A DNA stretch of 64,000 nucleotides from the NCBI RefSeq assembly GCF_036588685.1, contig NC_086373.1, positions 108,252,001-108,316,000 on the forward strand, read 5' to 3'. The stretch comes from Mytilus trossulus. Its lineage: Eukaryota. The position numbers were made by a program, and so were the translations under genes. The notes below the pieces were generated by a model. The model saw only the letters and a program-made list of their open reading frames with translations, was not told the DNA's origin and did no database searches. This document shows, piece by piece, positions 23,920 through 48,749 of the stretch. Position 1 is the first letter of the stretch. Every line of letters starts with the position of its first letter.

Positions 23920-24667
23920 TTAGCTCACCTGGCCCAAAGGGCCAAGTAAACTTTTCTCATCACTTTGCGTCCGGCGTCCGGCGTCTTCCGTCGTCGTCGT
24001 CGTTATCTTTTACAAAAATCTTCTCCTCTGAAACTACTGAGCCAAATTAAATCTTACTTGACCACAATCATCATTAGGGTATCTAGTTTAAAAATTGTGT
24101 CCGTTGACCCGGTCAACCAACCAAGTGGCCGCCATGGCTAAAAATAGAACATTGGGGTAAAATGCAGTTTTTAGCTTATAACTCAAAAACCAAAGCATTT
24201 AGAGAAAATATTTCAGGGGGTTAAATTGTTTATTACGTCAACATATATCTGACCTGAAAATTTCAGATGAATCTGACAACCGGTTGTTGGGTTGCTGCCA
24301 TTGAATTGGTAATTTTAAGGAAATTTTACTGTTTTTGAATATTATCTTGAACAATATTATAGATAGAGATAAACAGTGAACAGCAATTATGTTCAACAAA
24401 GTAAGTTTTACAAATAAGTCAAAACGTCCGATATGGTCAGTTGACCCCTTTTTTGTAGATTTTTAGAAAATATTTTCCACTGTAACTACTGGGCCAAGTT
24501 CATTATAAATAGAGACAATTGTAGCAACAAGAATGTTCAGTAGAGTAAGATCTACTAACACATCACCATCATCACAACACAATTTTGTTGTGAATTTATC
24601 TGTGTCCATTGTTTTATATGCACATAGACCAAGGTGAGCGACACAGGCTCTTGAGAGCCTCTAGTTT
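23920..24667 (+). mobile_element. HINE-like non-autonomous Helentron (AGCTCACCT family), complete
   Basis: 5' TAGCTCACCTGG and CGTC microsatellite. 3' AGGTGAGCG, GGCTCT..AGAGCC hairpin and CTAGTT. Confidence 0.75.
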
Positions 24668-24935
24668 AATCTACCTGTGCATTTGATTGTGGGACCTCGT
24701 GTCATCGTGAATGATAAATTTTATTGTACAATGAAGTTGATTAAGGAACAACGAGAAATTTCAGTGTAGCCAATCAGAAAATCGTATTATAATGAAACTT
24801 ATATCTTATGTTATTATAATCAAAAGATTTATTAAAAACAATAATTTATTTTCTTTTAAATTCTCTGATCTAAGATATTGTATCCAATCCTTTGTGATTG
24901 CGTTTAAAGATTTTAACTGAGATTTCCAGTTGGTT

Positions 24936-25848
24936 TTTAGCTCACCTAGCCCGAAGAGCCAAGTGAGCTTTTCTCATCAATTGGCGTCCGTCGTCCGTTG
25001 TCGTCGTCCGTCGTCGTCCGACGTCATCGTTAGCTTTTACAAAAATCTTCTCCTCTGAAACTACTGGGTCAAATTAAACGAAACTTGGCCACAATCATCA
25101 TTGGGGTATCGAGTTTAAAAATGAGTGGCGTGACCAGGCAAACCAACCAAGATGGCCGCCACCGCTAAAAATAGAACATGGTGGTTAAATGCAGTTTTTG
25201 GCTTATAACTCAAAATCCAAAGCATTTAGAGCAAATCTGATATGGAGTACAATGTTTATCAGATGAAGATCTGTATGCTCTAAAAAATTTCAGATGAATC
25301 AAACAACTCGTTGTTTGGTTGCTGCCCCTGAATTGGTAATTTTAAGAAAATTTTGCTGGTTTTGGTCATTATCTTAATTATTATTATAGATAGATAGAGA
25401 TAAATTGTAAACAGCAATAATGTTCAACAAATTAAGATTTACAAATAAGTCAATATGACCGAAAGGATCAATTGACTCCTTTAGGAGTTATTGTCCTTTA
25501 TAGTCAATTTTTAACCATTTTTCGTAAATCTTAGTATCTTTTACAAAAATCTTCTCCTGAAACTACTGGGCCAAATTAATCCAAACTTGGCCACAATCAT
25601 CTTTGGGGTATCTAGTTTAAAAATAAATGTGTCCGATGACCCGGCCATCGAACCAAGATGGCCGCAACGGCTAAAAATAGAACAAAGGGATAAAATGCAG
25701 TGTTTGGCTTAAAACTCAAAAAACCAAAGCATTTAGAGCAAATCTGACTGTATCTGCCCTGAAATTTCAGATTGATCGGACAACCCGTTGTTAGGTTGCT
25801 GCCCCTGAATTGGTAATTTTGAGGAAATTTTGCCCTTTTTTTGTTATT
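24936..25848 (+). mobile_element. HINE-like element, same family, 3' truncated, ~1.7 central units
   Basis: Same 5' end; the central unit TTTTACAAAAATCTTCTCC repeats at ~25036 and ~25539. Confidence 0.75.
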
Positions 25849-28690: not shown

Positions 28691-29472
28691 ATATATAAAT
28701 AAAAGCATATTTATCCTTGCCTATTGAAATCCAGTTTGCATATCTTTTCCGACTCGGATAAGTAATGAATATATATGTTAATTACTCTAATTATAGGCGA
28801 GAGAGAGAGAGAGGGTGCAATATTTATATTACATCTATTCATCTTTTTTAAAATACACTTGGAGGTTATTTCTTGAACACATGTTGTGATCATTGATAAC
28901 AATATTACAAAACAACTTTATAAATTGTAAAAATATTAACACGCTTTCATGTCTTAATTAAAGAACACAGTAGTATACCGTTGTTTAAAAGTTATAAATC
29001 GATTGAGGGAAAACGAATTCGGGTTACAAACTTAAACCAAGGAAAACCAATGCTGTTTATTTGTTTTGTTTATACATTGTTGTCATTACAGTAAAACGCC
29101 ATGCGACTGCCATACAGTTGAGAGATATAGCTATCTATAAAATCAGGTATAATTCATCAGTTTCTCCATAAGGAAATGCCTATACCAATCAAAAATATGT
29201 ATTCCCATTCGATTATTTATCTGATCTTTTACTATTGTCATTTGATAAGTGACTTTCTGTTTTGAATTTTCTTGGAGTTCGGTATTGTTTGTTATTTAAC
29301 TTTTTACATCATTTAATATACCAGGTGCCTTGTTTCCAGAGCTTCATATTATCAACTATCATAGGATTAACCTAGGATCAAAACAATCTGTGGATAGTTC
29401 TCAACAGTATGGTCTTAGTACAAATCAATTACATTATATTTAAAAGTATGCTGTCGTCTTCATAAACAGTAC

Positions 29473-29637
29473 TGTTGTAAAATCTGCTTACTACATGTAT
29501 AGTAAAGCGCGCCGCTCGATTGTAACGTCACTATAGTTGACGTACTTCCTTTAGCTTTCATTACATTATCAAACTAGCAAGACGTCTGTTATTTTACTTC
29601 ATGCCATTGTACGAAATCTTACCCACTATACGCAAAA
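29473..29637 (+). repeat. LTR1 (165 bp)
   Basis: TGTTGTAAAATC...TATACGCAAAA; identical by eye to LTR4. Confidence 0.95.
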
Positions 29638-29638
29638 T

Positions 29639-29653
29639 TGGTGCCGAGACCAG
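29639..29653 (+). promoter_or_regulatory. Primer-binding site, probably tRNA-His (also at 35352 and 41065)
   Basis: TGGTGCCGAGACCAG lies 1 nt after the LTR. It resembles the complement of the invertebrate tRNA-His 3' end as I recall it (TGGTGCCGTGACCAG). Confidence 0.7.
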
Positions 29654-29661
29654 ATGAAATA

Positions 29662-32600
29662 ATGGAAGCGAAGATGAAAGCCGTCCGAGCGGGACATAAA
29701 GGAGCAGTTACCAAACTCCTGAGGAAATTCGAAGACATTCAACAAAGTTCAGAAGCGGATTACGAAGAAATTTCAACGCTATTAGAAGCAGTCACACAGA
29801 AGAAAAGAATTTTAGAAAATATCAACGAAAAAATATTGGAGCAAACTTCGGATGAAGATGTAGCAGTGGAAATACAGGACTCAGATGAGTACATGTACAA
29901 TTTAGAATATAAATTACGGCAAATTACAAAATTAGCAAAGTCAGTTCAAAATCAGAGTTTACCCGCAAATGAATCAATTTCATTGAATTTGAACCCTCAT
30001 GTCGATAATTTTATACCGAATACCCAATCAGTTCCATCTACATTTATTAGTCAACCTTCAACATCAGCAAACCAACAATATACACATAGCTCAAATTCAC
30101 GCTCATCGTCTAGCACAAACAGCGAGTATCACAAGCTACCAAAGTTAAACTTGCCTATATTTACCGGAGATATACTAGACTGGCAATCATTTTGGGACTC
30201 CTATGAAACCGCGATCCACACAAATCCTACACTGAGTGATGCACAAAAATTCAACTACTTGAAGTCCCTTCTACAAAGCGAAGCGTTACAAACTATAGCA
30301 GGATTTTCCATGACAAACACAAATTACGACAAAGCAATTTCATTACTCCAGGAAAGATACGGGCAAACTCATAAAATAGTCCAAACCTACATGCAGGCCT
30401 TACTTGATTTACAGGCTCCAATTCATACAATTACTAGTCTCCGTAGTTACTATGATAAGACAGAAACTTATGTAAGAGGTCTCGAGTCACTCGGACAGAC
30501 AGACGATACGTACGGATCATTACTAGTTCCTGTTATTCTGAATAAATTACCCGCAGAGATACGTCAACATTTAGCACGAGAACACAGATCCACAAACTGG
30601 ACACTACATGATTTACGCAAAGCGCTTCTCGACGAACTAAATATTATGGAAGCCGGAAAATTACCGGATAAAGTAGAAAGACCACTCGCTACCGCTACAT
30701 TTTTAACTAGTATGAAGTCACGTTCAAACTCAACATTCGGAAAACCCGAAAAGTCAGTTTCGGATAAAAAAACCTTTCATTAAGTCTTGCATTTTTTGCC
30801 ATGAAAATGGGCATATAGCCATTAATTGCACAAAAATCACAACCGTTGATGCACGCACAGCTGTAATTAAGAGAGAGAGGCTATGTTTTAACTGTCTCGG
30901 TCGTCACAAATTAGCTGAATGCAAATCTACAAGCACGTGTAAAAAATGCAACAAACGTCATCATACAAGTATATGTAACAAGAATAACAGTATGAACGAA
31001 TCACATGAACAAGTAAACGAAGATAATGGTAAAACCGTATTACACTCCTCCCTTGCACCACATAAAACATCAAATGTTATATTGAAAACCGCTGTCGCTT
31101 GCGTGAGCTCAGGAACACAGTCAACGGATGCTAATATTTTACTAGACGAAGGAGCACAGAGATCATTCATCACAGAATCACTCGCCAGAAAACTAGATTT
31201 AGGTATAAACGGGACCGAAATAGTTCATCTTTCTGGATTCGGAGAGCAAAACAGACAAGTTAGGCATATGCAATCGGCAACGATTTACTTACAAACTGAC
31301 GATGTAGAAAACATACCGCTCGAGGTACTTATCATTCCTGAAATAGCATTACCGATACAAACGCACATGAAATCAGTAGTTAATATGAGACATTTGCATG
31401 GCTTGAAATTAGCACACCCAATTACCGAAGATGACATGTTTGATATTAATTTACTTATTGGAGCAGATTATTATTGGAGTATAGTAGGAGATAAAATCAT
31501 AAGAGGTAATGGACCGACTGCCGTCGAGTCTAAATTAGGATATTTACTTTCTGGACCAACGACAAGTATTAGAGAATCAAACAGAAGTTCAATATTGAAC
31601 GTTATCGTGTCTCATAAAGCAGAGGAATGTAATTTAACAAAGTTTTGGGAAATCGAGTCCCTTGGTATAGAAGACAGTAACACAAAAACAGAGCTAGAAG
31701 AATTTCAAACGATTTATGAAAACTCATCAGTGTCATTTCTTGACAACAAGTATGTCGCCAAGCTACCTTGGAAAACCAACCACTCGCCATTACCGTCAAA
31801 CAAAACAGTCGCCTTTCGTAGGACTGAAAATGTAATAAGACGTCTTAGTAAAGAACCGCAATTGTTACAAAAGTATGGAGAAATCATCGAAGAACAGGAA
31901 AAGCGAGGGTTTATAGAGAAAGTCGAGGAAGATTTAGTTAAACCAAATACCAAGTTACATTATATCCCGCATCACGCAGTAAAGAAAGATTCCGCAACTA
32001 CACCTATCAGGATCGTGTATGACTGTAGTTGTAGACAAACACCGGACACCGCCAGCTTAAATGATTGCTTACTTAACGTACCTCCGAAGTTGAATAATGT
32101 AACCGCAATACGTTTAAGATTCCGCATGAATAAATACGCCGTATGTACAGATATAGAAAAGGCATTTCTCAACGTTGGACTAGATATTGAAGACCGGGAC
32201 GTCACCAGGTTTTTCTGGTTAAGCAATCCAACAGACCCAAGCAGTTGTATCACGACTTATAGGTTTAAATCTGTATTATTTGGAGCCACCTGTTCACCAT
32301 TTATATTAAATGCTGTTTTATCAAAACACATCAACAACCACCAGACAGAATTTACTGACAATTTAATGAGAGATTTATACGTAGATAATATTGTTTCTAG
32401 TTTTAATTCCGAAGATGAATTGTCACAATATTTCAAAGTTGTTCGCAAGTTATTTACAGATGGTGGATTCAATTTACGCGCATGGGCATCAAATAACAAA
32501 CTATTACAACAACTTGCAGAATCTGAAAAAGTTATCGACACAGAACAGGTAGTAAAAGTATTAGGCTTGCGTTGGAATACAGATCAAGATACACTAAAGT

Positions 32601-35044
32601 ATGCTGAAAATATTCTAGACACGGAAATAGACCTCATCACGAAACGCGAAGTACTTAGAGAATCGTCCAAGATTTATGATCCACTCGGGATCATCAGTCC
32701 AGTTACCGTACGAGGTAAAATGTTTATGCAAACACTTTGGGGTGAAAACATGAAATGGGACGAGCCATTGCCTGATCATATGAGAACAGAATGGATTGAC
32801 ATAAGAAAAGATATTAATGAAGCAACAAAGACCGTTATACATCGTCACTACTTCACAAATTGTTCGGATTCTAATAGCGACAATGTGATACATGTATTCA
32901 TGGATGCTAGCATGAAAGCTTACGGAGCTTGTGCATACCTAGTTTCAGAAGGAAAAAGTTCACTCTTAATGTCAAGAAATCGAGTAGCACCGTTAAAACA
33001 GCTAACAATTCCAAGACTAGAACTAATGGCAGCAGTAATTGGAAGTCGACTTTTATCTCATATTTTGTCTCATATTAATGTTAATCGTGTAATATTATGG
33101 AGCGATAGCCAAATTGTCTTGAGCTGGCTGAGTTCGAAGAAGACATTAAAACAATTTGTCGCTAACAGAGTGAAAGAAATCAAAGAACTGACTGAAAAGT
33201 TTACATGGAAATACTGTCCAAGTGAATCCAATCCCGCCGATTTACTATCAAGAGGAATAACAACTCAAAAGTTTAGAGACAACATGTTATGGATGAACGG
33301 CCCTGATTGGTTAACGAACGAGAATAAATGGCCTGAATGGAAAATAGATGAAACGCAAATTATGCCAGCAAGTGCTCAACAAGAAGTTACAGTTGATACG
33401 ACACAAATACTGAGTACACACAGTGTAACGCAGGAAAATACCATAATTGACATTGACAGGTTTAATTCTTTCAAGAAACTTTTGAGAGTCATAGCCTACG
33501 TTGAAAGATTTATATTTAACTGTAGATCGAGAGAAAAACGTACTGGAAATCTTAATACGCAAGAATTACAGAATGCAACGTATACTTTGATACAAGAAGT
33601 ACAACGAAGACACTTTTTGGACGTAAAGCTAAGCTTACAAAATGGAGAAACAAAGACACACAACTTAGTTAAACAACTGAAACTTTATTTGGATAAGGAC
33701 AACTTGATTCGTTGTGAAGGACGTATTCATAACGCGCCATTGGATGAATCTACTAAATTTCCTATACTGCTACCTGCAAAAGATAGATTAACCAGACTCG
33801 TTATAATGGATGCTCACATTTCACATTTACACTCAGGACTGTCAAGTACCGTCACACTAATCCGTCAGACATATTGGATACCGACTATACGACAAGTTGC
33901 GAACAGTATCTTACGCAAATGTGTGACCTGTAAAAAAGTTAAAGGCCGACCGTATACAGCCCCAGATCCGCCGCCTTTACCGAAGGACAGACTACGAGAA
34001 GCACCGCCGTTCACAGTAACGGGAGTTGATTTTACGGGAGCTCTGACAGTGAAAAACAACGATGGAACTACAAGCAAAGCTTACATATGTTTATTTACAT
34101 GTGCCAGCACTCGCGCTGTGCATTTAGAAGTGGTGGACAATTTAACAGAAGAAACATTTATCCTAGCATTTAGAAGATTCGTTAGTAGAAAATCGTTACC
34201 GAAAACGATGATATCCGACAATGCTACTACCTACATTGCAGCCGCTAAGCATATAGAGAATCTCACACGATCAGCGTCACTTACAGAAACGTTGAACAAC
34301 TATGGTACAACATGGACATTTATACCAAAACGCGCACCGTGGTACGGTGGCTTTTGGGAAAGATTGATAGGGATTACAAAAGATTGTGTTAAGAAGGTTT
34401 TGGGACGTTCTCTTATCAATATAGAACTTCTTAAGACAATTGTGACTGAAGTTGAAACTATTATGAATGACCGTCCACTAACTTACGTATCGTCAGATCC
34501 TTTAGATGAACCGCTAACGCCATCACATTTACTTTACGGACGTCGGATCACAACACTTCCATACCCTGATAATAGAGACTTTGAGCATTCGACGCTTGAG
34601 ATGACTCATGAATCTGTGAATAAACTGTCTCGGTTGAAATCTCAAATTATTCAACAGTTTTGGTGCAAATGGAAACACGAGTATCTTACCTCTCTTCGAG
34701 AATATCATCGAAACACTGGAAAGGACATTCAAACAATTAAAGTTGGAGATGTAGTACAAGTGTACGAAGAATCACCGAGGACAAAGTGGAATCTAGCCGT
34801 TATTGATCAACTGAACATTGGAGGTGACGGGAAAACGAGATCTGCTGTTATACGGACAAAACATGGACTCACTTCACGTCCAATAACAAAACTTTATCCT
34901 CTCGAAGTGTCAGAAAATAGAGACTTTACTATAGACAATAATTGTGATCTCAACAATCCTTCTACGTCTAGAAACTTAAGCCGTAAAGCGAAAAGTGTTG
35001 CCATAGAGAAACTTAAGAAATGGACAAAAGGAAATAATTCATAA
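29662..35044 (+). pseudogene. gag-pol of copy 1, split by a +1 A in the run at 30766-30772
   Basis: Matches the intact copy-3 polyprotein except for A7 versus A6, which gives ORFs 29662-30783 and 30992-35044. Confidence 0.85.
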
Positions 35045-35197
35045 TCAATGACTGTAAATTAAATTCAAGTTTAGTTTTCATATATAGACATTAACTCCTT
35101 TCAGAGACTTCAGAGTTTTCAGTAATTTTTCAAGTGTCAATTTATTTATATTGTAGTTTTTAATATTTTTAATTTCATCTTTTGCGCGGCCCGAGTA

Positions 35198-35350
35198 TGT
35201 TGTAAAATCTGCTTACTACATGTATAGTAAAGCGCGCCGCTCGATTGTAACGTCACTATAGTTGACGTACTTCCTTTAGCTTTCATTACATTATCAAACT
35301 GTTATTTTACTTCATGCCATTGTACAAAATCTTACCCACTATACGCAAAA
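35198..35350 (+). repeat. LTR2 (153 bp, shared internal LTR)
   Basis: As LTR1 but lacks AGCAAGACGTCT; private G>A at 35326. Confidence 0.95.
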
Positions 35351-35374
35351 TTGGTGCCGAGACCAGATGAAATA

Positions 35375-38300
35375 ATGGAAGCGAAGATGAAAGCCGTCCG
35401 AGCGGGACATAAAGGAGCAGTTACCAAACTCCTGAGGAAATTCGAAGACATTCAACAAAGTTCAGAAGCGGATTACGAAGAAATTTCAACGCTATTAGAA
35501 GCAGTCACACAGAAGAAAAGAATTTTAGAAAATATCAACGAAAAAATATTGGAGCAAACTTCGGATGAAGATGTAGCAGTGGAAATACAGGATTCAGATG
35601 AGTACATGTACAATTTAGAATATAAATTACGGCAAATTACAAAATTAGCAAAGTCAGTTCAAAATCAGAGTTTACCCGCAAATGAATCAATTTCATTGAA
35701 TTTGAACCCTCATGCCGATAATTTTATACCGAATACCCAATCAGTTCCATCTACATTTATTAGTCAACCTTCAACATCAGCAAACCAACAATATACACAT
35801 AGCTCAAATTCACGCTCATCGTCTAGCACAAACAGCGAGTATCACAAGCTACCAAAGTTAAACTTGCCTATATTTACCGGAGATATACTAGACTGGCAAT
35901 CATTTTGGGACTCCTATGAAACCGCGATCCACACAAATCCTACACTGAGTGATGCACAAAAATTCAACTACTTGAAGTCCCTTCTACAAAGCGAAGCGTT
36001 ACAAACTATAGCAGGATTTTCCATGACAAACACAAATTACGACAAAGCAATTTCATTACTCCAGGAAAGATACGGGCAAACTCATAAAATAGTCCAAACC
36101 TACATGCAGGCCTTACTTGATTTACAGGCTCCAATTCATACAATTACTAGTCTCCGTAGTTACTATGATAAGACAGAAACTTATGTAAGAGGTCTCGAGT
36201 CACTCGGACAGACAGACGATACGTACGGATCATTACTAGTTCCTGTTATTCTGAATAAATTACTCGCAGAGATACATCAACATTTAGCACGAGAACACAG
36301 ATCCACAAACTGGACACTACATGATTTACGCAAAGCGCTTCTCGACGAACTAAATATTATGGAAGCCGGAAAATTACCGGATAAAGTAGAAAGACCACTC
36401 GCTACCGCTACATTTTTAACTAGTATGAAGTCACTTTCAAACTCAACATTCGGAAAACCCGAAAAGTCAGTTTCGGATAAAAAAACCTTTCATTAAGTCT
36501 TGCATTTTTTGCCATGAAAATGGGCATATAGCCATTAATTGCACAAAAATCACAACCGTTGATGCACGCACAGCTGTAATTAAGAGAGAGAGGCTATGTT
36601 TTAACTGTCTCGGTCGTCACAAATTAGCTGAATGCAAATCTACAAGCACGTGTAAAAAATGCAACAAACGTCATCATACAAGTATATGTAACAAGAATAA
36701 CAGTATGAACGAATCACATGAACAAGTAAACGAAGATAATGGTAAAACCGTATTACACTCCTCCCTTGCACCACATAAAACATCAAATGTTATATTGAAA
36801 ACCGCTGTCGCTTGCGTGAGCTCAGGAACACAGTCAACGGATGCTAATATTTTACTAGACGAAGGAGCACAGAGATCATTCATCACAGAATCACTCGCCA
36901 GAAAACTAGATTTAGGTATAAACGGGACCGAAATAGTTCATCTTTCTGGATTCGGAGAGCAAAACAGACAAGTTAGGCATATGCAATCGGCAACGATTTA
37001 CTTACAAACTGACGATGTAGAAAACATACCGCTCGAGGTACTTATCATTCCTGAAATAGCATTACCGATACAAACGCACATGAAATCAGTAGTTAATATG
37101 AGACATTTGCATGGCTTGAAATTAGCACACCCAATTACCGAAGATGACATGTTTGATATTAATTTACTTATTGGAGCAGATTATTATTGGAGTATAGTAG
37201 GAGATAAAATCATAAGAGGTAATGGACCGACTGCCGTCGAGTCTAAATTAGGATATTTACTTTCTGGACCAACGACAAGTATTAGAGAATCAAACAGAAG
37301 TTCAATATTGAACGTTATCGTGTCTCATAAAGCAGAGGAATGTAATTTAACAAAGTTTTGGGAAATCGAGTCCCTTGGTATAGAAGACAGTAACACAAAA
37401 ACAGAGCTAGAAGAATTTCAAACGATTTATGAAAACTCATCAGTGTCATTTCTTGACAACAAGTATGTCGCCAAGCTACCTTGGAAAACCAACCACTCGC
37501 CATTACCGTCAAACAAAACAGTCGCCTTTCGTAGGACTGAAAATGTAATAAGACGTCTTAGTAAAGAACCGCAATTGTTACAAAAGTATGGAGAAATCAT
37601 CGAAGAACAGGAAAAGCGAGGGTTTATAGAGAAAGTCGAGGAAGATTTAGTTAAACCAAATACCAAGTTACATTATATCCCGCATCACGCAGTAAAGAAA
37701 GATTCCGCAACTACACCTATCAGGATCGTGTATGACTGTAGTTGTAGACAAACACCGGACACCGCCAGCTTAAATGATTGCTTACTTAACGTACCTCCGA
37801 AGTTGAATAATGTAACCGCAATACTTTTAAGATTCCGCATGAATAAATACGCCGTATGTACAGATATAGAAAAGGCATTTCTCAACGTTGGACTAGATAT
37901 TGAAGACCGGGACGTCACCAGGTTTTTCTGGTTAAGCAATCCAACAGACCCAAGCAGTTGTATCACGACTTATAGGTTTAAATCTGTATTATTTGGAGCC
38001 ACCTGTTCACCATTTATATTAAATGCTGTTTTATCAAAACACATCAACAACCACCAGACAGAATTTACTGACAATTTAATGAGAGATTTATACGTAGATA
38101 ATATTGTTTCTAGTTTTAATTCCGAAGATGAATTGTCACAATATTTCAAAGTTGTTCGCAAGTTATTTACAGATGGTGGATTCAATTTACGCGCATGGGC
38201 ATCAAATAACAAACTATTACAACAACTTGCAGAATCTGAAAAAGTTATCGACACAGAACAGGTAGTAAAAGTATTAGGCTTGCGTTGGAATACAGATCAA

Positions 38301-40757
38301 GATACACTAAAGTATGCTGAAAATATTCTCGACACGGAAATAGACCTCATCACGAAACGCGAAGTACTTAGAGAATCGTCCAAGATTTATGATCCACTCG
38401 GGATCATCAGTCCAGTTACCGTACGAGGTAAAATGTTTATGCAAACACTTTGGGGTGAAAACATGAAATGGGACGAGCCATTGCCTGATCATATGAGAAC
38501 AGAATGGATTGACATAAGAAAAGATATTAATGAAGCAACAAAGACCGTTATACATCGTCACTACTTCACAAATTGTTCGGATTCTAATAGCGACAATGTG
38601 ATACATGTATTCATGGATGCTAGCATGAAAGCTTACGGAGCTTGTGCATACCTAGTTTCAGAAGGAAAAAGTTCACTCTTAATGTCAAGAAATCGAGTAG
38701 CACCGTTAAAACAGCTAACAATTCCAAGACTAGAACTAATGGCAGCAGTAATTGGAAGTCGACTTTTATCTCATATTTTGTCTCATATTAATGTTAATCG
38801 TGTAATATTATGGAGCGATAGCCAAATTGTCTTGAGCTGGCTGAGTTCGAAGAAGACATTAAAACAATTTGTCGCTAACAGAGTGAAAGAAATCAAAGAA
38901 CTGACTGAAAAGTTTACATGGAAATACTGTCCAAGTGAATCCAATCCCGCCGATTTACTATCAAGAGGAATAACAACTCAAAAGTTTAGAGACAACATGT
39001 TATGGATGAACGGCCCTGATTGGTTAACGAACGAGAATAAATGGCCTGAATGGAAAATAGATGAAACGCAAATTATGCCAGCAAGTGCTCAACAAGAAGT
39101 TACAGTTGATACGACACAAATACTGAGTACACACAGTGTAACGCAGGAAAATACCATAATTGACATTGACAGGTTTAATTCTTTCAAGAAACTTTTGAGA
39201 GTCATAGCCTACGTTGAAAGATTTATATTTAACTGTAGATCGAGAGAAAAACGTACTGGAAATCTTAATACGCAAGAATTACAGAATGCAACGTATACTT
39301 TGATACAAGAAGTACAACGAAGACACTTTTTGGACGTAAAGCTAAGCTTACAAAATGGAGAAACAAAGACACACAACTTAGTTAAACAACTGAAACTTTA
39401 TTTGGATAAGGACAACTTGATTCGTTGTGAAGGACGTATTCATAACGCGCCATTGGATGAATCTACTAAATTTCCTATACTGCTACCTGCAAAAGATAGA
39501 TTAACCAGACTCGTTATAATGGATGCTCACATTTCACATTTACACTCAGGACTGTCAAGTACCGTCACACTAATCCGTCAGACATATTGGATACCGACTA
39601 TACGACAAGTTGCGAACAGTATCTTACGCAAATGTGTGACCTGTAAAAAAGTTAAAGGCCGACCGTATACAGCCCCAGATCCGCCGCCTTTACCGAAGGA
39701 CAGACTACGAGAAGCACCGCCGTTCACAGTAACGGGAGTTGATTTTACGGGAGCTCTGACAGTGAAAAACAACGATGGAACTACAAGCAAAGCTTACATA
39801 TGTTTATTTACATGTGCCAGCACTCGCGCTGTGCATTTAGAAGTGGTGGACAATTTAACAGAAGAAACATTTATCCTAGCATTTAGAAGATTCGTTAGTA
39901 GAAAATCGTTACCGAAAACGATGATATCCGACAATGCTACTACCTACATTGCAGCCGCTAAGCATATAGAGAATCTCACACGATCAGCGTCACTTACAGA
40001 AACGTTGAACAACTATGGTACAACATGGACATTTATACCAAAACGCGCACCGTGGTACGGTGGCTTTTGGGAAAGATTGATAGGGATTACAAAAGATTGT
40101 GTTAAGAAGGTTTTGGGACGTTCTCTTATCAATATAGAACTTCTTAAGACAATTGTGACTGAAGTTGAAACTATTATGAATGACCGTCCACTAACTTACG
40201 TATCGTCAGATCCTTTAGATGAACCGCTAACGCCATCACATTTACTTTACGGACGTCGGATCACAACACTTCCATACCCTGATAATAGAGACTTTGAGCA
40301 TTCGACGCTTGAGATGACTCATGAATCTGTGAATAAACTGTCTCGGTTGAAATCTCAAATTATTCAACAGTTTTGGTGCAAATGGAAACACGAGTATCTT
40401 ACCTCTCTTCGAGAATATCATCGAAACACTGGAAAGGACATTCAAACAATTAAAGTTGGAGATGTAGTACAAGTGTACGAAGAATCACCGAGGACAAAGT
40501 GGAATCTAGCCGTTATTGATCAACTGAACATTGGAGGTGACGGGAAAACGAGATCTGCTGTTATACGGACAAAACATGGACTCACTTCACGTCCAATAAC
40601 AAAACTTTATCCTCTCGAAGTGTCAGAAAATAGAGACTTTACTATAGACAATAATTGTGATCTCAACAATCCTTCTACGTCTAGAAACTTAAGCCGTAAA
40701 GCGAAAAGTGTTGCCATAGAGAAACTTAAGAAATGGACAAAAGGAAATAATTCATAA
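35375..40757 (+). pseudogene. gag-pol of copy 2, split by the same +1 A (36479-36485)
   Basis: ORFs 35375-36496 and 36705-40757. Confidence 0.85.
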
Positions 40758-40910
40758 TCAATGACTGTAAATTAAATTCAAGTTTAGTTTTCATATATAG
40801 ACATTAACTCCTTTCAGAGACTTCAGAGTTTTCAGTAATTTTTCAAGTGTCAATTTATTTATATTGTAGTTTTTAATATTTTTAATTTCATCTTTTGCGC
40901 GGCCCGAGTA

Positions 40911-41063
40911 TGTTGTAAAATCTGCTTACTACATGTATAGTAAAGCGCGCCGCTCGATTGTAACGTCACTATAGTTGACGTACTTCCTTTAGCTTTCATT
41001 ACATTATCAAACTGTTATTTTACTTCATGCCATTGTACGAAATCTTACCCACTATACGCAAAA
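40911..41063 (+). repeat. LTR3 (153 bp, shared internal LTR)
   Basis: Same 12-bp deletion as LTR2. Confidence 0.95.
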
Positions 41064-41087
41064 TTGGTGCCGAGACCAGATGAAATA

Positions 41088-44000
41088 ATGGAAGCGAAGA
41101 TGAAAGCCGTCCGAGCGGGACATAAAGGAGCAGTTACCAAACTCCTGAGGAAATTCGAAGACATTCAACAAAGTTCAGAAGCGGATTACGAAGAAATTTC
41201 AACGCTATTAGAAGCAGTCACACAGAAGAAAAGAATTTTAGAAAATATCAACGAAAAAATATTGGAGCAAACTTCGGATGAAGATGTAGCAGTGGAAATA
41301 CAGGATTCAGATGAGTACATGTACAATTTAGAATATAAATTACGGCAAATTACAAAATTAGCAAAGTCAGTTCAAAATCAGAGTTTACCCGCAAATGAAT
41401 CAATTTCATTGAATTTGAACCCTCATGCCGATAATTTTATACCGAATACCCAATCAGTTCCATCTACATTTATTAGTCAACCTTCAACATCAGCAAACCA
41501 ACAATATACACATAGCTCAAATTCACGCTCATCGTCTAGCACAAACAGCGAGTATCACAAGCTACCAAAGTTAAACTTGCCTATATTTACCGGAGATATA
41601 CTAGACTGGCAATCATTTTGGGACTCCTATGAAACCGCGATCCACACAAATCCTACACTGAGTGATGCACAAAAATTCAACTACTTGAAGTCCCTTCTAC
41701 AAAGCGAAGCGTTACAAACTATAGCAGGATTTTCCATGACAAACACAAATTACGACAAAGCAATTTCATTACTCCAGGAAAGATACGGGCAAACTCATAA
41801 AATAGTCCAAACCTACATGCAGGCCTTACTTGATTTACAGGCTCCAATTCATACAATTACTAGTCTCCGTAGTTACTATGATAAGACAGAAACTTATGTA
41901 AGAGGTCTCGAGTCACTCGGACAGACAGACGATACGTACGGATCATTACTAGTTCCTGTTATTCTGAATAAATTACCCGCAGAGATACGTCAACATTTAG
42001 CACGAGAACACAGATCCACAAACTGGACACTACATGATTTACGCAAAGCGCTTCTCGACGAACTAAATATTATGGAAGCCGGAAAATTACCGGATAAAGT
42101 AGAAAGACCACTCGCTACCGCTACATTTTTAACTAGTATGAAGTCACTTTCAAACTCAACATTCGGAAAACCCGAAAAGTCAGTTTCGGATAAAAAACCT
42201 TTCATTAAGTCTTGCATTTTTTGCCATGAAAATGGGCATATAGCCATTAATTGCACAAAAATCACAACCGTTGATGCACGCACAGCTGTAATTAAGAGAG
42301 AGAGGCTATGTTTTAACTGTCTCGGTCGTCACAAATTAGCTGAATGCAAATCTACAAGCACGTGTAAAAAATGCAACAAACGTCATCATACAAGTATATG
42401 TAACAAGAATAACAGTATGAACGAATCACATGAACAAGTAAACGAAGATAATGGTAAAACCGTATTACACTCCTCCCTTGCACCACATAAAACATCAAAT
42501 GTTATATTGAAAACCGCTGTCGCTTGCGTGAGCTCAGGAACACAGTCAACGGATGCTAATATTTTACTAGACGAAGGAGCACAGAGATCATTCATCACAG
42601 AATCACTCGCCAGAAAACTAGATTTAGGTATAAACGGGACCGAAATAGTTCATCTTTCTGGATTCGGAGAGCAAAACAGACAAGTTAGGCATATGCAATC
42701 GGCAACGATTTACTTACAAACTGACGATGTAGAAAACATACCGCTCGAGGTACTTATCATTCCTGAAATAGCATTACCGATACAAACGCACATGAAATCA
42801 GTAGTTAATATGAGACATTTGCATGGCTTGAAATTAGCACACCCAATTACCGAAGATGACATGTTTGATATTAATTTACTTATTGGAGCAGATTATTATT
42901 GGAGTATAGTAGGAGATAAAATCATAAGAGGTAATGGACCGACTGCCGTCGAGTCTAAATTAGGATATTTACTTTCTGGACCAACGACAAGTATTAGAGA
43001 ATCAAACAGAAGTTCAATATTGAACGTTATCGTGTCTCATAAAGCAGAGGAATGTAATTTAACAAAGTTTTGGGAAATCGAGTCCCTTGGTATAGAAGAC
43101 AGTAACACAAAAACAGAGCTAGAAGAATTTCAAACGATTTATGAAAACTCATCAGTGTCATTTCTTGACAACAAGTATGTCGCCAAGCTACCTTGGAAAA
43201 CCAACCACTCGCCATTACCGTCAAACAAAACAGTCGCCTTTCGTAGGACTGAAAATGTAATAAGACGTCTTAGTAAAGAACCGCAATTGTTACAAAAGTA
43301 TGGAGAAATCATCGAAGAACAGGAAAAGCGAGGGTTTATAGAGAAAGTCGAGGAAGATTTAGTTAAACCAAATACCAAGTTACATTATATCCCGCATCAC
43401 GCAGTAAAGAAAGATTCCGCAACTACACCTATCAGGATCGTGTATGACTGTAGTTGTAGACAAACACCGGACACCGCCAGCTTAAATGATTGCTTACTTA
43501 ACGTACCTCCGAAGTTGAATAATGTAACCGCAATACTTTTAAGATTCCGCATGAATAAATACGCCGTATGTACAGATATAGAAAAGGCATTTCTCAACGT
43601 TGGACTAGATATTGAAGACCGGGACGTCACCAGGTTTTTCTGGTTAAGCAATCCAACAGACCCAAGCAGTTGTATCACGACTTATAGGTTTAAATCTGTA
43701 TTATTTGGAGCCACCTGTTCACCATTTATATTAAATGCTGTTTTATCAAAACACATCAACAACCACCAGACAGAATTTACTGACAATTTAATGAGAGATT
43801 TATACGTAGATAATATTGTTTCTAGTTTTAATTCCGAAGATGAATTGTCACAATATTTCAAAGTTGTTCGCAAGTTATTTACAGATGGTGGATTCAATTT
43901 ACGCGCATGGGCATCAAATAACAAACTATTACAACAACTTGCAGAATCTGAAAAAGTTATCGACACAGAACAGGTAGTAAAAGTATTAGGCTTGCGTTGG

Positions 44001-46469
44001 AATACAGATCAAGATACACTAAAGTATGCTGAAAATATTCTCGACACGGAAATAGACCTCATCACGAAACGCGAAGTACTTAGAGAATCGTCCAAGATTT
44101 ATGATCCACTCGGGATCATCAGTCCAGTTACCGTACGAGGTAAAATGTTTATGCAAACACTTTGGGGTGAAAACATGAAATGGGACGAGCCATTGCCTGA
44201 TCATATGAGAACAGAATGGATTGACATAAGAAAAGATATTAATGAAGCAACAAAGACCGTTATACATCGTCACTACTTCACAAATTGTTCGGATTCTAAT
44301 AGCGACAATGTGATACATGTATTCATGGATGCTAGCATGAAAGCTTACGGAGCTTGTGCATACCTAGTTTCAGAAGGAAAAAGTTCACTCTTAATGTCAA
44401 GAAATCGAGTAGCACCGTTAAAACAGCTAACAATTCCAAGACTAGAACTAATGGCAGCAGTAATTGGAAGTCGATTTTTATCTCATATTTTGTCTCATAT
44501 TAATGTTAATCGTGTAATATTATGGAGCGATAGCCAAATTGTCTTGAGCTGGCTGAGTTCGAAGAAGACATTAAAACAATTTGTCGCTAACAGAGTGAAA
44601 GAAATCAAAGAACTGACTGAAAAGTTTACATGGAAATACTGTCCAAGTGAATCCAATCCCGCCGATTTACTATCAAGAGGAATAACAACTCAAAAGTTTA
44701 GAGACAACATGTTATGGATGAACGGCCCTGATTGGTTAACGAACGAGAATAAATGGCCTGAATGGAAAATAGATGAAACGCAAATTATGCCAGCAAGTGC
44801 TCAACAAGAAGTTACAGTTGATACGACACAAATACTGAGTACACACAGTGTAACGCAGGAAAATACCATAATTGACATTGACAGGTTTAATTCTTTCAAG
44901 AAACTTTTGAGAGTCATAGCCTACGTTGAAAGATTTATATTTAACTGTAGATCGAGAGAAAAACGTACTGGAAATCTTAATACGCAAGAATTACAGAATG
45001 CAACGTATACTTTGATACAAGAAGTACAACGAAGACACTTTTTGGACGTAAAGCTAAGCTTACAAAATGGAGAAACAAAGACACACAACTTAGTTAAACA
45101 ACTGAAACTTTATTTGGATAAGGACAACTTGATTCGTTGTGAAGGACGTATTCATAACGCGCCATTGGATGAATCTACTAAATTTCCTATACTGCTACCT
45201 GCAAAAGATAGATTAACCAGACTCGTTATAATGGATGCTCACATTTCACATTTACACTCAGGACTGTCAAGTACCGTCACACTAATCCGTCAGACATATT
45301 GGATACCGACTATACGACAAGTTGCGAACAGTATCTTACGCAAATGTGTGACCTGTAAAAAAGTTAAAGGCCGACCGTATACAGCCCCAGATCCGCCGCC
45401 TTTACCGAAGGACAGACTACGAGAAGCACCGCCGTTCACAGTAACGGGAGTTGATTTTACGGGAGCTCTGACAGTGAAAAACAACGATGGAACTACAAGC
45501 AAAGCTTACATATGTTTATTTACATGTGCCAGCACTCGCGCTGTGCATTTAGAAGTGGTGGACAATTTAACAGAAGAAACATTTATCCTAGCATTTAGAA
45601 GATTCGTTAGTAGAAAATCGTTACCGAAAACGATGATATCCGACAATGCTACTACCTACATTGCAGCCGCTAAGCATATAGAGAATCTCACACGATCAGC
45701 GTCACTTACAGAAACGTTGAACAACTATGGTACAACATGGACATTTATACCAAAACGCGCACCGTGGTACGGTGGCTTTTGGGAAAGATTGATAGGGATT
45801 ACAAAAGATTGTGTTAAGAAGGTTTTGGGACGTTCTCTTATCAATATAGAACTTCTTAAGACAATTGTGACTGAAGTTGAAACTATTATGAATGACCGTC
45901 CACTAACTTACGTATCGTCAGATCCTTTAGATGAACCGCTAACGCCATCACATTTACTTTACGGACGTCGGATCACAACACTTCCATACCCTGATAATAG
46001 AGACTTTGAGCATTCGACGCTTGAGATGACTCATGAATCTGTGAATAAACTGTCTCGGTTGAAATCTCAAATTATTCAACAGTTTTGGTGCAAATGGAAA
46101 CACGAGTATCTTACCTCTCTTCGAGAATATCATCGAAACACTGGAAAGGACATTCAAACAATTAAAGTTGGAGATGTAGTACAAGTGTACGAAGAATCAC
46201 CGAGGACAAAGTGGAATCTAGCCGTTATTGATCAACTGAACATTGGAGGTGACGGGAAAACGAGATCTGCTGTTATACGGACAAAACATGGACTCACTTC
46301 ACGTCCAATAACAAAACTTTATCCTCTCGAAGTGTCAGAAAATAGAGACTTTACTATAGACAATAATTGTGATCTCAACAATCCTTCTACGTCTAGAAAC
46401 TTAAGCCGTAAAGCGAAAAGTGTTGCCATAGAGAAACTTAAGAAATGGACAAAAGGAAATAATTCATAA
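41088..46469 (+). CDS. Intact BEL/Pao Gag-Pol polyprotein (copy 3)
   Basis: Gag (LPKLNLPIFTGD..WQSFWD), three CCHC knuckles, protease LLDEGAQRSFI, RT YVDN, RNase H HVFMDAS and integrase (H..H..CVTC; GVDFTG/SDNAT/WERL) in BEL/Pao order. First ATG is at 41088. Confidence 0.95.
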   Translation: MEAKMKAVRAGHKGAVTKLLRKFEDIQQSSEADYEEISTLLEAVTQKKRILENINEKILEQTSDEDVAVEIQDSDEYMYNLEYKLRQITKLAKSVQNQSLPANESISLNLNPHADNFIPNTQSVPSTFISQPSTSANQQYTHSSNSRSSSSTNSEYHKLPKLNLPIFTGDILDWQSFWDSYETAIHTNPTLSDAQKFNYLKSLLQSEALQTIAGFSMTNTNYDKAISLLQERYGQTHKIVQTYMQALLDLQAPIHTITSLRSYYDKTETYVRGLESLGQTDDTYGSLLVPVILNKLPAEIRQHLAREHRSTNWTLHDLRKALLDELNIMEAGKLPDKVERPLATATFLTSMKSLSNSTFGKPEKSVSDKKPFIKSCIFCHENGHIAINCTKITTVDARTAVIKRERLCFNCLGRHKLAECKSTSTCKKCNKRHHTSICNKNNSMNESHEQVNEDNGKTVLHSSLAPHKTSNVILKTAVACVSSGTQSTDANILLDEGAQRSFITESLARKLDLGINGTEIVHLSGFGEQNRQVRHMQSATIYLQTDDVENIPLEVLIIPEIALPIQTHMKSVVNMRHLHGLKLAHPITEDDMFDINLLIGADYYWSIVGDKIIRGNGPTAVESKLGYLLSGPTTSIRESNRSSILNVIVSHKAEECNLTKFWEIESLGIEDSNTKTELEEFQTIYENSSVSFLDNKYVAKLPWKTNHSPLPSNKTVAFRRTENVIRRLSKEPQLLQKYGEIIEEQEKRGFIEKVEEDLVKPNTKLHYIPHHAVKKDSATTPIRIVYDCSCRQTPDTASLNDCLLNVPPKLNNVTAILLRFRMNKYAVCTDIEKAFLNVGLDIEDRDVTRFFWLSNPTDPSSCITTYRFKSVLFGATCSPFILNAVLSKHINNHQTEFTDNLMRDLYVDNIVSSFNSEDELSQYFKVVRKLFTDGGFNLRAWASNNKLLQQLAESEKVIDTEQVVKVLGLRWNTDQDTLKYAENILDTEIDLITKREVLRESSKIYDPLGIISPVTVRGKMFMQTLWGENMKWDEPLPDHMRTEWIDIRKDINEATKTVIHRHYFTNCSDSNSDNVIHVFMDASMKAYGACAYLVSEGKSSLLMSRNRVAPLKQLTIPRLELMAAVIGSRFLSHILSHINVNRVILWSDSQIVLSWLSSKKTLKQFVANRVKEIKELTEKFTWKYCPSESNPADLLSRGITTQKFRDNMLWMNGPDWLTNENKWPEWKIDETQIMPASAQQEVTVDTTQILSTHSVTQENTIIDIDRFNSFKKLLRVIAYVERFIFNCRSREKRTGNLNTQELQNATYTLIQEVQRRHFLDVKLSLQNGETKTHNLVKQLKLYLDKDNLIRCEGRIHNAPLDESTKFPILLPAKDRLTRLVIMDAHISHLHSGLSSTVTLIRQTYWIPTIRQVANSILRKCVTCKKVKGRPYTAPDPPPLPKDRLREAPPFTVTGVDFTGALTVKNNDGTTSKAYICLFTCASTRAVHLEVVDNLTEETFILAFRRFVSRKSLPKTMISDNATTYIAAAKHIENLTRSASLTETLNNYGTTWTFIPKRAPWYGGFWERLIGITKDCVKKVLGRSLINIELLKTIVTEVETIMNDRPLTYVSSDPLDEPLTPSHLLYGRRITTLPYPDNRDFEHSTLEMTHESVNKLSRLKSQIIQQFWCKWKHEYLTSLREYHRNTGKDIQTIKVGDVVQVYEESPRTKWNLAVIDQLNIGGDGKTRSAVIRTKHGLTSRPITKLYPLEVSENRDFTIDNNCDLNNPSTSRNLSRKAKSVAIEKLKKWTKGNNS

Positions 46470-46622
46470 TCAATGACTGTAAATTAAATTCAAGTTTAGT
46501 TTTCATATATAGACATTAACTCCTTTCAGAGACTTCAGAGTTTTCAGTAATTTTTCAAGTGTCAATTTATTTATATTGTAGTTTTTAATATTTTTAATTT
46601 CATCTTTTGCGCGGCCCGAGTA

Positions 46623-46787
46623 TGTTGTAAAATCTGCTTACTACATGTATAGTAAAGCGCGCCGCTCGATTGTAACGTCACTATAGTTGACGTACTTCCT
46701 TTAGCTTTCATTACATTATCAAACTAGCAAGACGTCTGTTATTTTACTTCATGCCATTGTACGAAATCTTACCCACTATACGCAAAA
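46623..46787 (+). repeat. LTR4 (165 bp)
   Basis: Full length, followed by TSD AGTAC. Confidence 0.95.
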
Positions 46788-47124
46788 AGTACATTTAATT
46801 TGATAATGAAACTGTGTTGAAAAAGACAGCAATGGTTTTATCATTTTACTGTCTTTTTTTTTCCATAGATATTTTACCGCTTATTGTGTGTTACTATATT
46901 TAATATCTGTGCTTGTTGCAGTTGCTATATTTTTAGTTGCCTAGGTAAAAATCTACATATTAGCTGTTCCAAATCTCATATTAACTTCTCAAGATTTTCC
47001 CTCCCTGAATAAGCATATATTCTTACTTTTGTGATTATTATTAACAACATATAAATATAACTGTAATCAAATCTGAACTGTTAGATGCATTCGTGTGTTT
47101 GACTATGTTAGATTGAACCAATGG

Positions 47125-47486: not shown

Positions 47487-48749
47487 ATGGCAGCTGCACC
47501 AAACGTTTGTGACGGCTGCACAAAAGATGGAAAAGTAGAATCATTTTGCGTCAATTGTGAGCAGCTTTATTGCCAGGAATGTACCGTTTATCATATGAAA
47601 TGTAAAGTCACACGTTCACATATCTTAATGGATGCATCAAACGTTGACACATATAACGCTCATTCTTCAATTGATGTTAAGTGTGGCAATGAATGTGGGG
47701 AGCAGGCAGTAGTTCTTTGTTTGGATTGTAAACAGTTACTTTGCAACGACTGTTCAGAGAAGCATTCAATGCTTAAAGCAACCAAAGGACATAATACAAT
47801 AACCGCGAAACAACTTGTTAGAGAAGAAACAGCATCCTTATCTTCTGACTGCGTTTACTCTGAACAAACTTCTGTAATTTCACATCCACAGGAGTTAGTG
47901 CATGCACAAGTTCAAGTTGAGAAAGGTCCACACTCGGGGACATTTTTGCATGAGTTCATGAGTTCTGCTCCAGGAGATAAAGAGTTAACTCGAGTTCGTG
48001 GAATAGTGCTTCTTTTCGATGGCAGAATTATTATAGCCGATTATAAAAATCGGAGTTTGAAACTATTTAGCCGTGAAATGAAATTTGAAATGGCAAAGGA
48101 TATAAAAGATGACCCAAGAGGAATGGTTGCTTCTGCTTATGATAATGTAATAGTCACTTTTGCTGATAAGAAGGAAATACGAATATATGAAATAGAAAAT
48201 AAAAAGATACGTACTAAAAAAAAGGTAAATGTGAAAGAAAAACCTTACAGTATTGCTTATAATAAAGACCACTTTGCGGTTGAACACGGTGAGGGAGAAG
48301 ATGGCACAATTCGTATTTATGACCAGCACATAAGAGAAATCTTTATCATACCGGGTAGTACCAGAAGCTTTGGACAATTTACTGGCAATACAATACGCCT
48401 TGCCTTAGATTTATCAAAATATGTCATATTTGTTGTAGATATAGCAAAGGAGTTGGTCCATTGTGTTGATTTTAAAGGTGGGCTGATCTGGACAGTAAAA
48501 GTCGGAAGTCCTAGAGGAATTGTGTTCCACAATAACATGCTATTTGTTGCCAGCAGTACAGAAAACAAGATAATTCAAATGAATGCTGTAGATGGAATAG
48601 TTTACTCTATGTTAGACGAAGACAATAGAATTAGGCGTCCTCGGTACATTGCCTACAATCCTGATTCGAAAAAAATGGCTGTTGAAATCGATGGAAACCA
48701 TATAAAACTGTATAATATTACTGGCTTACAAAAGGGTTTTAACTTTTAG
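47487..48749 (+). CDS. TRIM-like 2xB-box + NHL protein (copy F, 420 aa)
   Basis: Intact ORF, closest to copy B. The ATG at 47487 aligns with the paralogue starts. Confidence 0.9.
   Translation: MAAAPNVCDGCTKDGKVESFCVNCEQLYCQECTVYHMKCKVTRSHILMDASNVDTYNAHSSIDVKCGNECGEQAVVLCLDCKQLLCNDCSEKHSMLKATKGHNTITAKQLVREETASLSSDCVYSEQTSVISHPQELVHAQVQVEKGPHSGTFLHEFMSSAPGDKELTRVRGIVLLFDGRIIIADYKNRSLKLFSREMKFEMAKDIKDDPRGMVASAYDNVIVTFADKKEIRIYEIENKKIRTKKKVNVKEKPYSIAYNKDHFAVEHGEGEDGTIRIYDQHIREIFIIPGSTRSFGQFTGNTIRLALDLSKYVIFVVDIAKELVHCVDFKGGLIWTVKVGSPRGIVFHNNMLFVASSTENKIIQMNAVDGIVYSMLDEDNRIRRPRYIAYNPDSKKMAVEIDGNHIKLYNITGLQKGFNF

What the first reader, a model, noticed from the sequence alone, without database searches (positions are those of the whole stretch)
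29473..46787. Inner LTRs differ from outer LTRs, and SNP polarity suggests capture of circular element DNA
Seen: LTR1 and LTR4 are 165 bp and identical, while LTR2 and LTR3 both lack AGCAAGACGTCT (flanked by CT microhomology). Copy-1-private variants are all in the 5' half (29880, 30002, 30722, 32112, 32617), and the copy-3-private substitution is further 3' (44475, equivalent to 33050). Simple unequal crossover between identical LTRs would give four identical LTRs. Inference: a 1-LTR circle, circle dimer or rolling-circle product of a sister element with the deleted LTR recombined into the resident element between ~32617 and ~33050. This would be integrase-independent amplification through extrachromosomal circles. 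Alternatively, the deletion arose at the first junction and was then duplicated.
Basis: partly seen in the sequence, partly recalled or inferred. Interest (0 to 1): 0.75.

Follow-up and report, generated by a model that had tools for sequence, protein, structure and literature searches.

The report
Tandem triple mussel retrotransposon, shared LTRs
Three near-identical copies of one jumping gene sit head to tail, sharing their end repeats, in what is likely a mussel genome; the two inner repeats lack the same 12 bases, likely because the array grew in place by unequal exchange, a known kind of structure, and capture of a DNA circle is possible but not shown.

Summary
The structure is real. 29473-46787 is a Bel/Pao LTR retrotransposon trimer (LTR-internal x3-LTR) inside one 5-bp target duplication, with mussel (Mytilus) relatives. 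The outer LTRs are identical (165 bp). Both inner LTRs lack the same 12 bp.

The variant list was incomplete. It omits three copy-2-private substitutions and an A-run length variant in the 5' half that groups copies 1+2. The claimed polarity rests on one SNP (P = 1/6). A crude likelihood gives the proposed crossover interval at most about 20%.

Outgroups support part of the idea: copies 2+3 share a likely derived base (30722 site) besides the deletion. But capture of a circle dimer and a local dimer-to-trimer unequal exchange predict the same pattern.

Within-array changes look unselected (2 of 8 synonymous, against 12 of 19 versus family copies in public runs). All copies share array-specific alleles. 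The exact deletion was not seen elsewhere, in low-power tests, while a different deletion at the same palindrome was.

Best reading: in-place growth (0.55); cDNA or circle capture from a near-identical sibling 0.25. Such arrays and both mechanisms are published. Low interest.

The parts
29468..29472 (+). Left copy of the 5-bp target site duplication (AGTAC)
   Evidence: a contig of run X11 joins left-flank-like letters to the right flank, i.e. an empty site (table 7)
29473..29637 (+). LTR1, 165 bp, identical to LTR4; ends TG...AA
29576..29587 (+). 12-bp segment present in LTR1 and LTR4 (46726-46737), absent from LTR2 and LTR3; CT at both sides; holds an 8-bp palindrome
29638..35197 (+). Internal region, copy 1: primer-binding-site-like start; ORFs 29662-30783 (373 aa) and 30992-35044 (1350 aa), frame broken at the A-run at 30766; private substitutions 29880, 30002, 30722, 32112, 32617
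35198..35350 (+). LTR2, 153 bp, shared by copies 1 and 2; 12-bp deletion after 35300; private substitution 35326
35351..40910 (+). Internal region, copy 2: ORFs 35375-36496 and 36705-40757, frame broken at the A-run at 36479; private substitutions 36264, 36276
40911..41063 (+). LTR3, 153 bp, shared by copies 2 and 3; the same 12-bp deletion, after 41013
41064..46622 (+). Internal region, copy 3: one ORF 41088-46469 (1793 aa; DUF1759, DUF1758, RVT_1, Peptidase_A17, Integrase_H2C2, DUF5641); private substitution 44475
46623..46787 (+). LTR4, 165 bp, identical to LTR1
   Evidence: a contig of run X1 matches 46758-46880 without a difference (30 letters on the LTR side, one short of the tool's bridging rule)
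46788..46792 (+). Right copy of the target site duplication (AGTAC)

Best explanation
This is a three-copy tandem of one Bel/Pao LTR retrotransposon with shared LTRs inside a single 5-bp target duplication, and it likely grew in place in two recombination steps. Shown: the structure, the target duplication, the variants and the outgroup states at most sites. Inferred: (1) one integrase-made insertion; (2) unequal exchange between its LTRs gave a dimer L-a-l-b-L; (3) the middle LTR lost 12 bp at a palindrome with 2-bp microhomology, and a and b gathered a few unselected mutations; (4) a second unequal exchange duplicated one unit carrying the deleted LTR, so both inner LTRs carry it and copy 2 is b or a b/a mosaic; (5) a few more private mutations followed. 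Re-insertion of a circle looped out of this same locus would look identical and is counted here. The exchange point cannot be placed.
For: One TSD, alternating LTR and internal units, no TSD at inner junctions. Copies differ by 0.07-0.14% but by about 0.46-0.56% from the majority contigs of runs X1 and X2. All three copies agree at 19 of 19 selected pol sites where 3-4 of 4 runs read another letter. All four LTRs carry A at LTR position 10 where 4 of 4 runs read mainly G, and end AA where runs X2 and X3 show TA, so inner and outer LTRs are one sub-lineage. Within-array coding changes are 2 of 8 synonymous (neutral fraction 0.22) and hit residues kept in all homologues that cover them, against 12 of 19 synonymous versus family copies (binomial P = 0.033, Fisher two-sided P = 0.10). 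Three copy-2-private changes show that mutation went on after the trimer formed, at a rate that can account for the copy-1 and copy-3 variants (P = 0.32). Run X1 holds another LTR with a different net 12-nt loss over the same palindrome (record 6; 4 of 19 letters differ from LTR3), so the site can delete on its own. The route 'deletion at the junction, then expansion' is argued for Bari1 arrays (10.1101/158386, passages).
Against: No observation excludes an outside donor from the same young sub-lineage, and errors of reverse transcription would also look unselected. The synonymous contrast is small and uses 19 of 333 rows (40 shown). With an exchange at unit position 1250-1294, all three shared-derived characters (deletion, A-run, 30722 site) fall on one circularly permuted unit with one LTR, the shape of a 1-LTR circle, although the local model needs the same narrow window. 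With any exchange 3' of 1294 one parallel change or conversion at the A-run is needed. The host genome could not be searched, and contigs drop rare variants. The trimer is not confirmed by long reads.
Confidence: 0.55

Rival explanations
1. Capture of extrachromosomal cDNA: a linear cDNA, 1-LTR circle or circle dimer of a near-identical sibling carrying the deleted LTR recombined into the resident element; a captured monomer may have been duplicated later.
For: Outer LTRs identical and full, inner LTRs deleted. Copies 2+3 share a likely derived state at the 30722 site (R in 7 of 8 homologues that cover it, H in 1, L in none). A conflict-free single crossover exists at unit position 1250-1294. 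Tf1 cDNA forms tandems with a single central LTR at existing Tf2 elements (PMC11042837, passages). 1-LTR circles are abundant in the fly germline (10.1101/2022.09.25.509424, passages). The non-canonical LTR end could favour recombination over integration (inference).
Against: Polarity not significant. The donor would have to share all 19 tested array alleles and the LTR-specific states. The exact deletion is not among the indel rows shown (12 of 20, 12 of 29) and 0 matches came from three collection scans; these collections showed no sign of holding the family, so the test has little power. The same pattern follows from local exchange. Circles of the fly element nomad rarely reintegrate (PMC12951756, abstract).
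Confidence: 0.25
2. Assembly chimera: two haplotypes of a dimer (each with the deleted middle LTR) were stitched into a false trimer, making copy 2 an artificial mosaic.
For: It predicts the same mosaic pattern (inference). The array is 17.3 kb of 99.4-99.7% identical sequence. No laid contig spans it.
Against: Differences are 9 substitutions and 1 single-base indel plus one clean 12-bp deletion, unlike indel-dominated long-read error (general knowledge). Copy 2 has its own three private changes. The right junction is matched in run X1.
Confidence: 0.1
3. The tandem was retrotransposed as one piece from a read-through transcript or concatemer of an older array, so reverse transcription made the outer LTRs identical and left the inner ones as they were.
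For: Identical outer LTRs and one TSD. The route is proposed for plant tandems (PMC11899658, discussion).
Against: Needs a 17-kb template with internal primer sites that should give shorter products (inference). Outer-LTR identity is expected anyway at this age (P = 0.82). No source array was found.
Confidence: 0.07

Closest known systems
Tandem LTR-retrotransposon structures with shared internal LTRs in rice, Arabidopsis, almond and cotton (PMC11899658; parts 1-4 of 6 read: abstract to conclusions; supplements not read)
   Same: Alternating LTR and internal units, one flanking 5-bp TSD, high identity, empty sites in other individuals, origin left open between illegitimate recombination and insertion as a unit.
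   Different: Here an animal Bel/Pao element, three units, with a marker deletion confined to the inner LTRs; long-read support not checked here.
Integrase-independent Tf1/Tf2 tandems in fission yeast (PMC11042837; 12 of 16 passages)
   Same: [quoted passage not shown]
   Different: There the donor is known and marked, and is linear cDNA captured by Rad52 single-strand annealing; here no donor is identified.
Tandem TEs of Drosophila, including LTR tandems with shared LTRs and Bari1 arrays (10.1101/158386; 5 of 5 passages)
   Same: The same ambiguity is stated: identical junction deletions can come from rolling-circle copying or from a dimer whose junction deletion was expanded by unequal crossing over.
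   Different: Bari1 is a DNA transposon with deletions at tandem junctions; here the deletion is inside a shared LTR.
biv-TRIM tandem arrays in bivalves (PMC6934838; 12 of 15 passages)
   Same: Shared-terminal-repeat tandems in bivalves, ascribed to unequal recombination.
   Different: Miniature non-coding elements; this is a full-length coding element.
Mollusc Bel/Pao elements (PMC6238403; 12 of 39 passages)
   Same: Superfamily and host group; 76% identical full-length relatives in Mytilus edulis.
   Different: Clade (Sparrow, Sinbad, Surcouf, Tas, Suzu) not determined; LTR ends are TG...AA.

Membership tests
Bel/Pao LTR retrotransposon | Gag (DUF1759), protease-like (DUF1758), RT, Peptidase_A17, integrase zinc domain, DUF5641 in this order | tested here: met
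   (DUF1758 at 25.3 bits, cutoff 22; all six above cutoff)
Bel/Pao LTR retrotransposon | Direct LTRs, primer-binding-site-like sequence after the 5' LTR, short target duplication | tested here: met
   165-bp LTRs, TGGTGCC after LTR1-3, 5-bp TSD; the priming tRNA was not tested
Bel/Pao LTR retrotransposon | Canonical TG...CA termini (usual, not universal; general knowledge) | tested here: not met
   TG...AA in 4 of 4 LTRs; family copies in runs X2 and X3 end TA
Bel/Pao LTR retrotransposon | Placement in a named clade by RT/RNaseH tree | not tested
   no reference clade sequences in hand
Tandem LTR-RT with shared internal LTRs | Alternating LTR and internal regions, starting and ending with an LTR | tested here: met
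Tandem LTR-RT with shared internal LTRs | One TSD around the whole array, none at inner junctions | tested here: met
   empty site in run X11
Tandem LTR-RT with shared internal LTRs | Confirmed by long reads spanning the array | not testable with these tools
   all 24 runs listed are kept as contigs
Product of cDNA or 1-LTR-circle capture | A donor element elsewhere carrying the inner-LTR and inner-unit haplotype | tested here: inconclusive
   not seen in 6 of 24 runs laid (truncated tables, contigs drop rare variants); 0 matches; no host genome
Product of cDNA or 1-LTR-circle capture | One crossover that splits resident from donor alleles | tested here: inconclusive
Product of cDNA or 1-LTR-circle capture | Circular DNA of this element exists in the germline | not testable with these tools
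   needs eccDNA sequencing or inverse PCR

The most novel reading that the evidence does not exclude
The array is a frozen record, in an animal germline, of a reverse-transcribed 1-LTR circle (or circle dimer) of a Bel/Pao daughter copy, marked by the 12-bp LTR deletion, the A-run variant and the 30722-site change, that recombined into its own parent-type element between 30722 and 30766 without integrase, helped by a non-canonical LTR end.
Probability: 0.15. Interest if true: 0.55.

Novelty: new member of a known kind. Interest (0 to 1): 0.2.

Why it matters
Whether shared-LTR tandems arise by chromosomal unequal exchange or by capture of extrachromosomal cDNA is left open in the plant survey read here (PMC11899658). 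An array whose inner LTRs carry a private marker is a handy test case: one genome-wide search for the marked LTR and a population survey of this locus could decide it. If circle capture were shown, it would be natural evidence in an animal that 1-LTR circles feed back into chromosomes. On present evidence it is one more such tandem, and the SNP pattern does not decide the route.

Tried and rejected
No host genome was held, so the genome-wide search for 153-bp LTRs could not be run. A pattern allowing both LTR forms found 0 matches in metagenome, viral and prokaryote genome contigs; a protein search of metagenome contigs confirmed 0 of 295 candidates. These blanks say that the collections lack the family, not that a donor is absent.

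Sites 29880 and 32617 could not be polarised. At 29880 the runs show a third letter, from a diverged subfamily. 32617 is not among the 40 of 333 rows shown, and counts of unlisted differences point both ways.

A programmed frameshift at the A-run was considered and rejected: 4 of 4 homologues read through in one frame, and the break falls before the cysteine-histidine motif. But P0254 changes frame at the same spot and P0128 ends just before it, so the site may be slip- or error-prone, which weakens the A-run as a marker. In one search only part of the depth at 30766 shows copy 3's state (165 of 570, 55 of 121, 12 of 22, 141 of 287); the total is about twice the depth at 30699 in all four runs, which I read as overlapping contig ends, but the other state cannot be excluded in these runs.

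The joint 35197 to 29473 in run X2 is the normal internal-to-3'-LTR junction and is no evidence for a tandem or a circle. Contig depths were not used as copy numbers. The bacterial promoter scan is not relevant to an animal LTR. Searches of earlier findings by sequence and near this place returned nothing.
Full report
What is there. A self-comparison of the window shows a 5.7-kb unit repeated three times at 99.4-99.7% identity between 29468 and 46787. Four LTRs lie at 29473-29637, 35198-35350, 40911-41063 and 46623-46787. The whole array is flanked by one 5-bp duplication, AGTAC; the inner LTRs are preceded by the element's own 3' end and followed by its primer-site-like sequence. Copy 3 has one 1793-aa ORF with DUF1759, DUF1758, RVT_1, Peptidase_A17, Integrase_H2C2 and DUF5641, the Bel/Pao set; copies 1 and 2 are frame-broken at an A-run (30766, 36479) into 373-aa and 1350-aa ORFs. 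The best full-length relatives are 76% identical, one named from Mytilus edulis; 5 of 8 members of the 90% cluster are named from M. trossulus and the other 3 are the window's own. The host is therefore likely a Mytilus mussel.

Observation check. LTR1 equals LTR4, and LTR2 and LTR3 lack the same 12 bp with CT on both sides; the segment holds an 8-bp palindrome. The full alignment shows four more variants: 35326 (LTR2 only), 36264 and 36276 (copy 2 only), and an A-run length difference that groups copies 1+2 against copy 3 at unit position 1294. The polarity has P = 1/6 as stated, 0.33 with the A-run; the variant-free 3' stretch has P = 0.073; per-copy counts 5/3/1 fit equal rates, P = 0.32.

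Which states are old. I laid 6 of the 24 listed runs, all kept as contigs. At 30002 and 32112, 4 of 4 runs read the copy-2/3 letter, and 4 of 4 show copy 3's state at the A-run in part of their depth (40 of 333 substitution rows and 12 of 20 indel rows shown). A contig of X1 over 32900-33509 has one difference, at 33139, so it agrees with copies 1/2 at 33050. Proteins agree: residue 114 is A in 3 of 3 and 11 of 11 homologues that cover it, 297/301 are P/R in 4 of 4, 817 is L in 5 of 5, 1130 is L in 7 of 7, and 4 of 4 read through the A-run site in one frame. Residue 354 (30722 site) is R in 7 of 8, H in 1 and never L, in a variable region, so copy 1 likely keeps the old state and copies 2+3 share a new one. 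Thus: new in copy 1, 30002 and 32112; new in copy 2, three sites; new in copy 3, 44475; new in 2+3, the 30722 site and the LTR deletion; new in 1+2, the A-run; unresolved, 29880 and 32617. Against the A-run as a marker: P0254 changes frame at the same place and P0128 ends just before it.

The crossover. A local dimer a-l-b that undergoes unequal exchange gives a, b5'a3', b, which is the same pattern of shared and private variants (inference from the geometry). So no single haplotype can separate the two. The exchange point is not located.

Inside or outside origin. The copies differ by 0.07-0.14%, but from the majority contigs of X1 and X2 by 20 of 4332 and 24 of 4297 bases. Of the 40 rows shown I kept the 19 in the pol ORF read by 3-4 of 4 runs, dropping 19 gag rows mixed with a diverged subfamily, the copy-1-private 32112 and the non-coding 35061. 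All three copies agree at 19 of 19, and 12 of 19 are synonymous, above the neutral share (P = 0.0005 against 0.25). Within the array only 2 of 8 coding substitutions are synonymous (neutral share 0.22). The contrast is suggestive only (binomial P = 0.033; Fisher two-sided P = 0.10). All four LTRs carry A at position 10, where 4 of 4 runs read mainly G, and end AA, where X2 and X3 show TA. So the copies look like one lineage that gathered unselected changes, and any donor must be a near-identical sibling. Reverse-transcription errors in such a sibling would also look unselected, so this does not exclude it.

The deleted LTR elsewhere. The exact deletion is not among the indel rows shown (12 of 20; 12 of 29). 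Contigs drop rare variants, so this is weak. One X1 contig (record 6) has a net 12-nt loss over 46723-46739 plus two substitutions; its kept letters differ from LTR3 at 4 of 19 positions, so I read it as an independent deletion at the same palindrome. That shows the spot can delete without a donor. X1 also matches 46758-46880 without a difference, a hint that it carries this insertion, and an X11 contig shows the empty site. Collection scans were blank and uninformative.

Mechanism. Most likely (0.55): insertion, dimer by unequal exchange between LTRs, deletion in the middle LTR and a few mutations, then a second unequal exchange that copied the deleted LTR. Only the end product is shown; the steps are inferred. 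Rivals: capture of linear or circular cDNA from a near-identical sibling (0.25; specifically a circle, about 0.15), a haplotype chimera in the assembly (0.10), insertion of the tandem as a unit (0.07).

Comparison with what is known. Shared-LTR tandems with one TSD are common and polymorphic in plants, with the route left open (PMC11899658; parts 1-4 of 6). Integrase-independent capture of cDNA into an existing element is shown in fission yeast and uses linear cDNA (PMC11042837; passages). The same rolling-circle versus deletion-then-expansion ambiguity is discussed for Drosophila (10.1101/158386; passages). Bivalves have tandem TRIMs (PMC6934838; passages). 1-LTR circles are abundant in the fly germline (10.1101/2022.09.25.509424; passages) but those of nomad rarely reintegrate (PMC12951756; abstract). 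I found no report of a full-length Bel/Pao shared-LTR tandem in a mussel in the listings; the library lacks most subscription papers, and no supplements were read, so such a case may be listed in one.

Verdict. A real, ordinary kind of structure with one useful marker. The deletion is confirmed, the polarity argument fails, and circle capture remains an untested minority reading. New member of a known kind; interest 0.2.

Noticed in passing
window 29636-29637, 35349-35350, 41062-41063, 46786-46787: All four LTRs end AA, and family copies in runs X2 and X3 end TA, not the usual CA; the array still sits in a clean 5-bp TSD.
   Followed up: partly
window 29638-29652 and the same site after LTR2 and LTR3: The primer-site-like sequence in all three copies differs at one base from the form seen in run X3 (table 7). 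That the X3 form resembles a tRNA-His primer site is recalled, not tested. If so, a mismatch kept in all three copies would mildly favour in-place growth.
   Followed up: no
window 4131-5393 (-), 8799-10049 (+), 19037-19516 (+), 47487-48749 (+): The array lies in a cluster of single-ORF B-box genes, some with weak NHL or propeller hits, 68-84% alike in DNA; the nearest starts 700 bp after LTR4. A tandem gene cluster may itself be prone to unequal exchange (inference).
   Followed up: no
window about 29700-30700 (gag part): Public runs show a deeper, diverged subfamily over the gag part only, and several Mytilus proteins match the gag start at 85-98% and then jump or end: likely recombinant or internally deleted relatives.
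   Followed up: partly
window 46623-46787, run X1 record 6 and run X2: An LTR at another locus, followed by the same foreign flank in X1 and X2, appears to align up to the last LTR base; in X1 it carries a different deletion over the palindrome.
   Followed up: partly
window 58400-59321; 51684-52261, 55491-57300, 59882-60936, 23920-25848: An AT-rich 21-bp tandem array and a family of about 500-bp repeats in both orientations.
   Followed up: no
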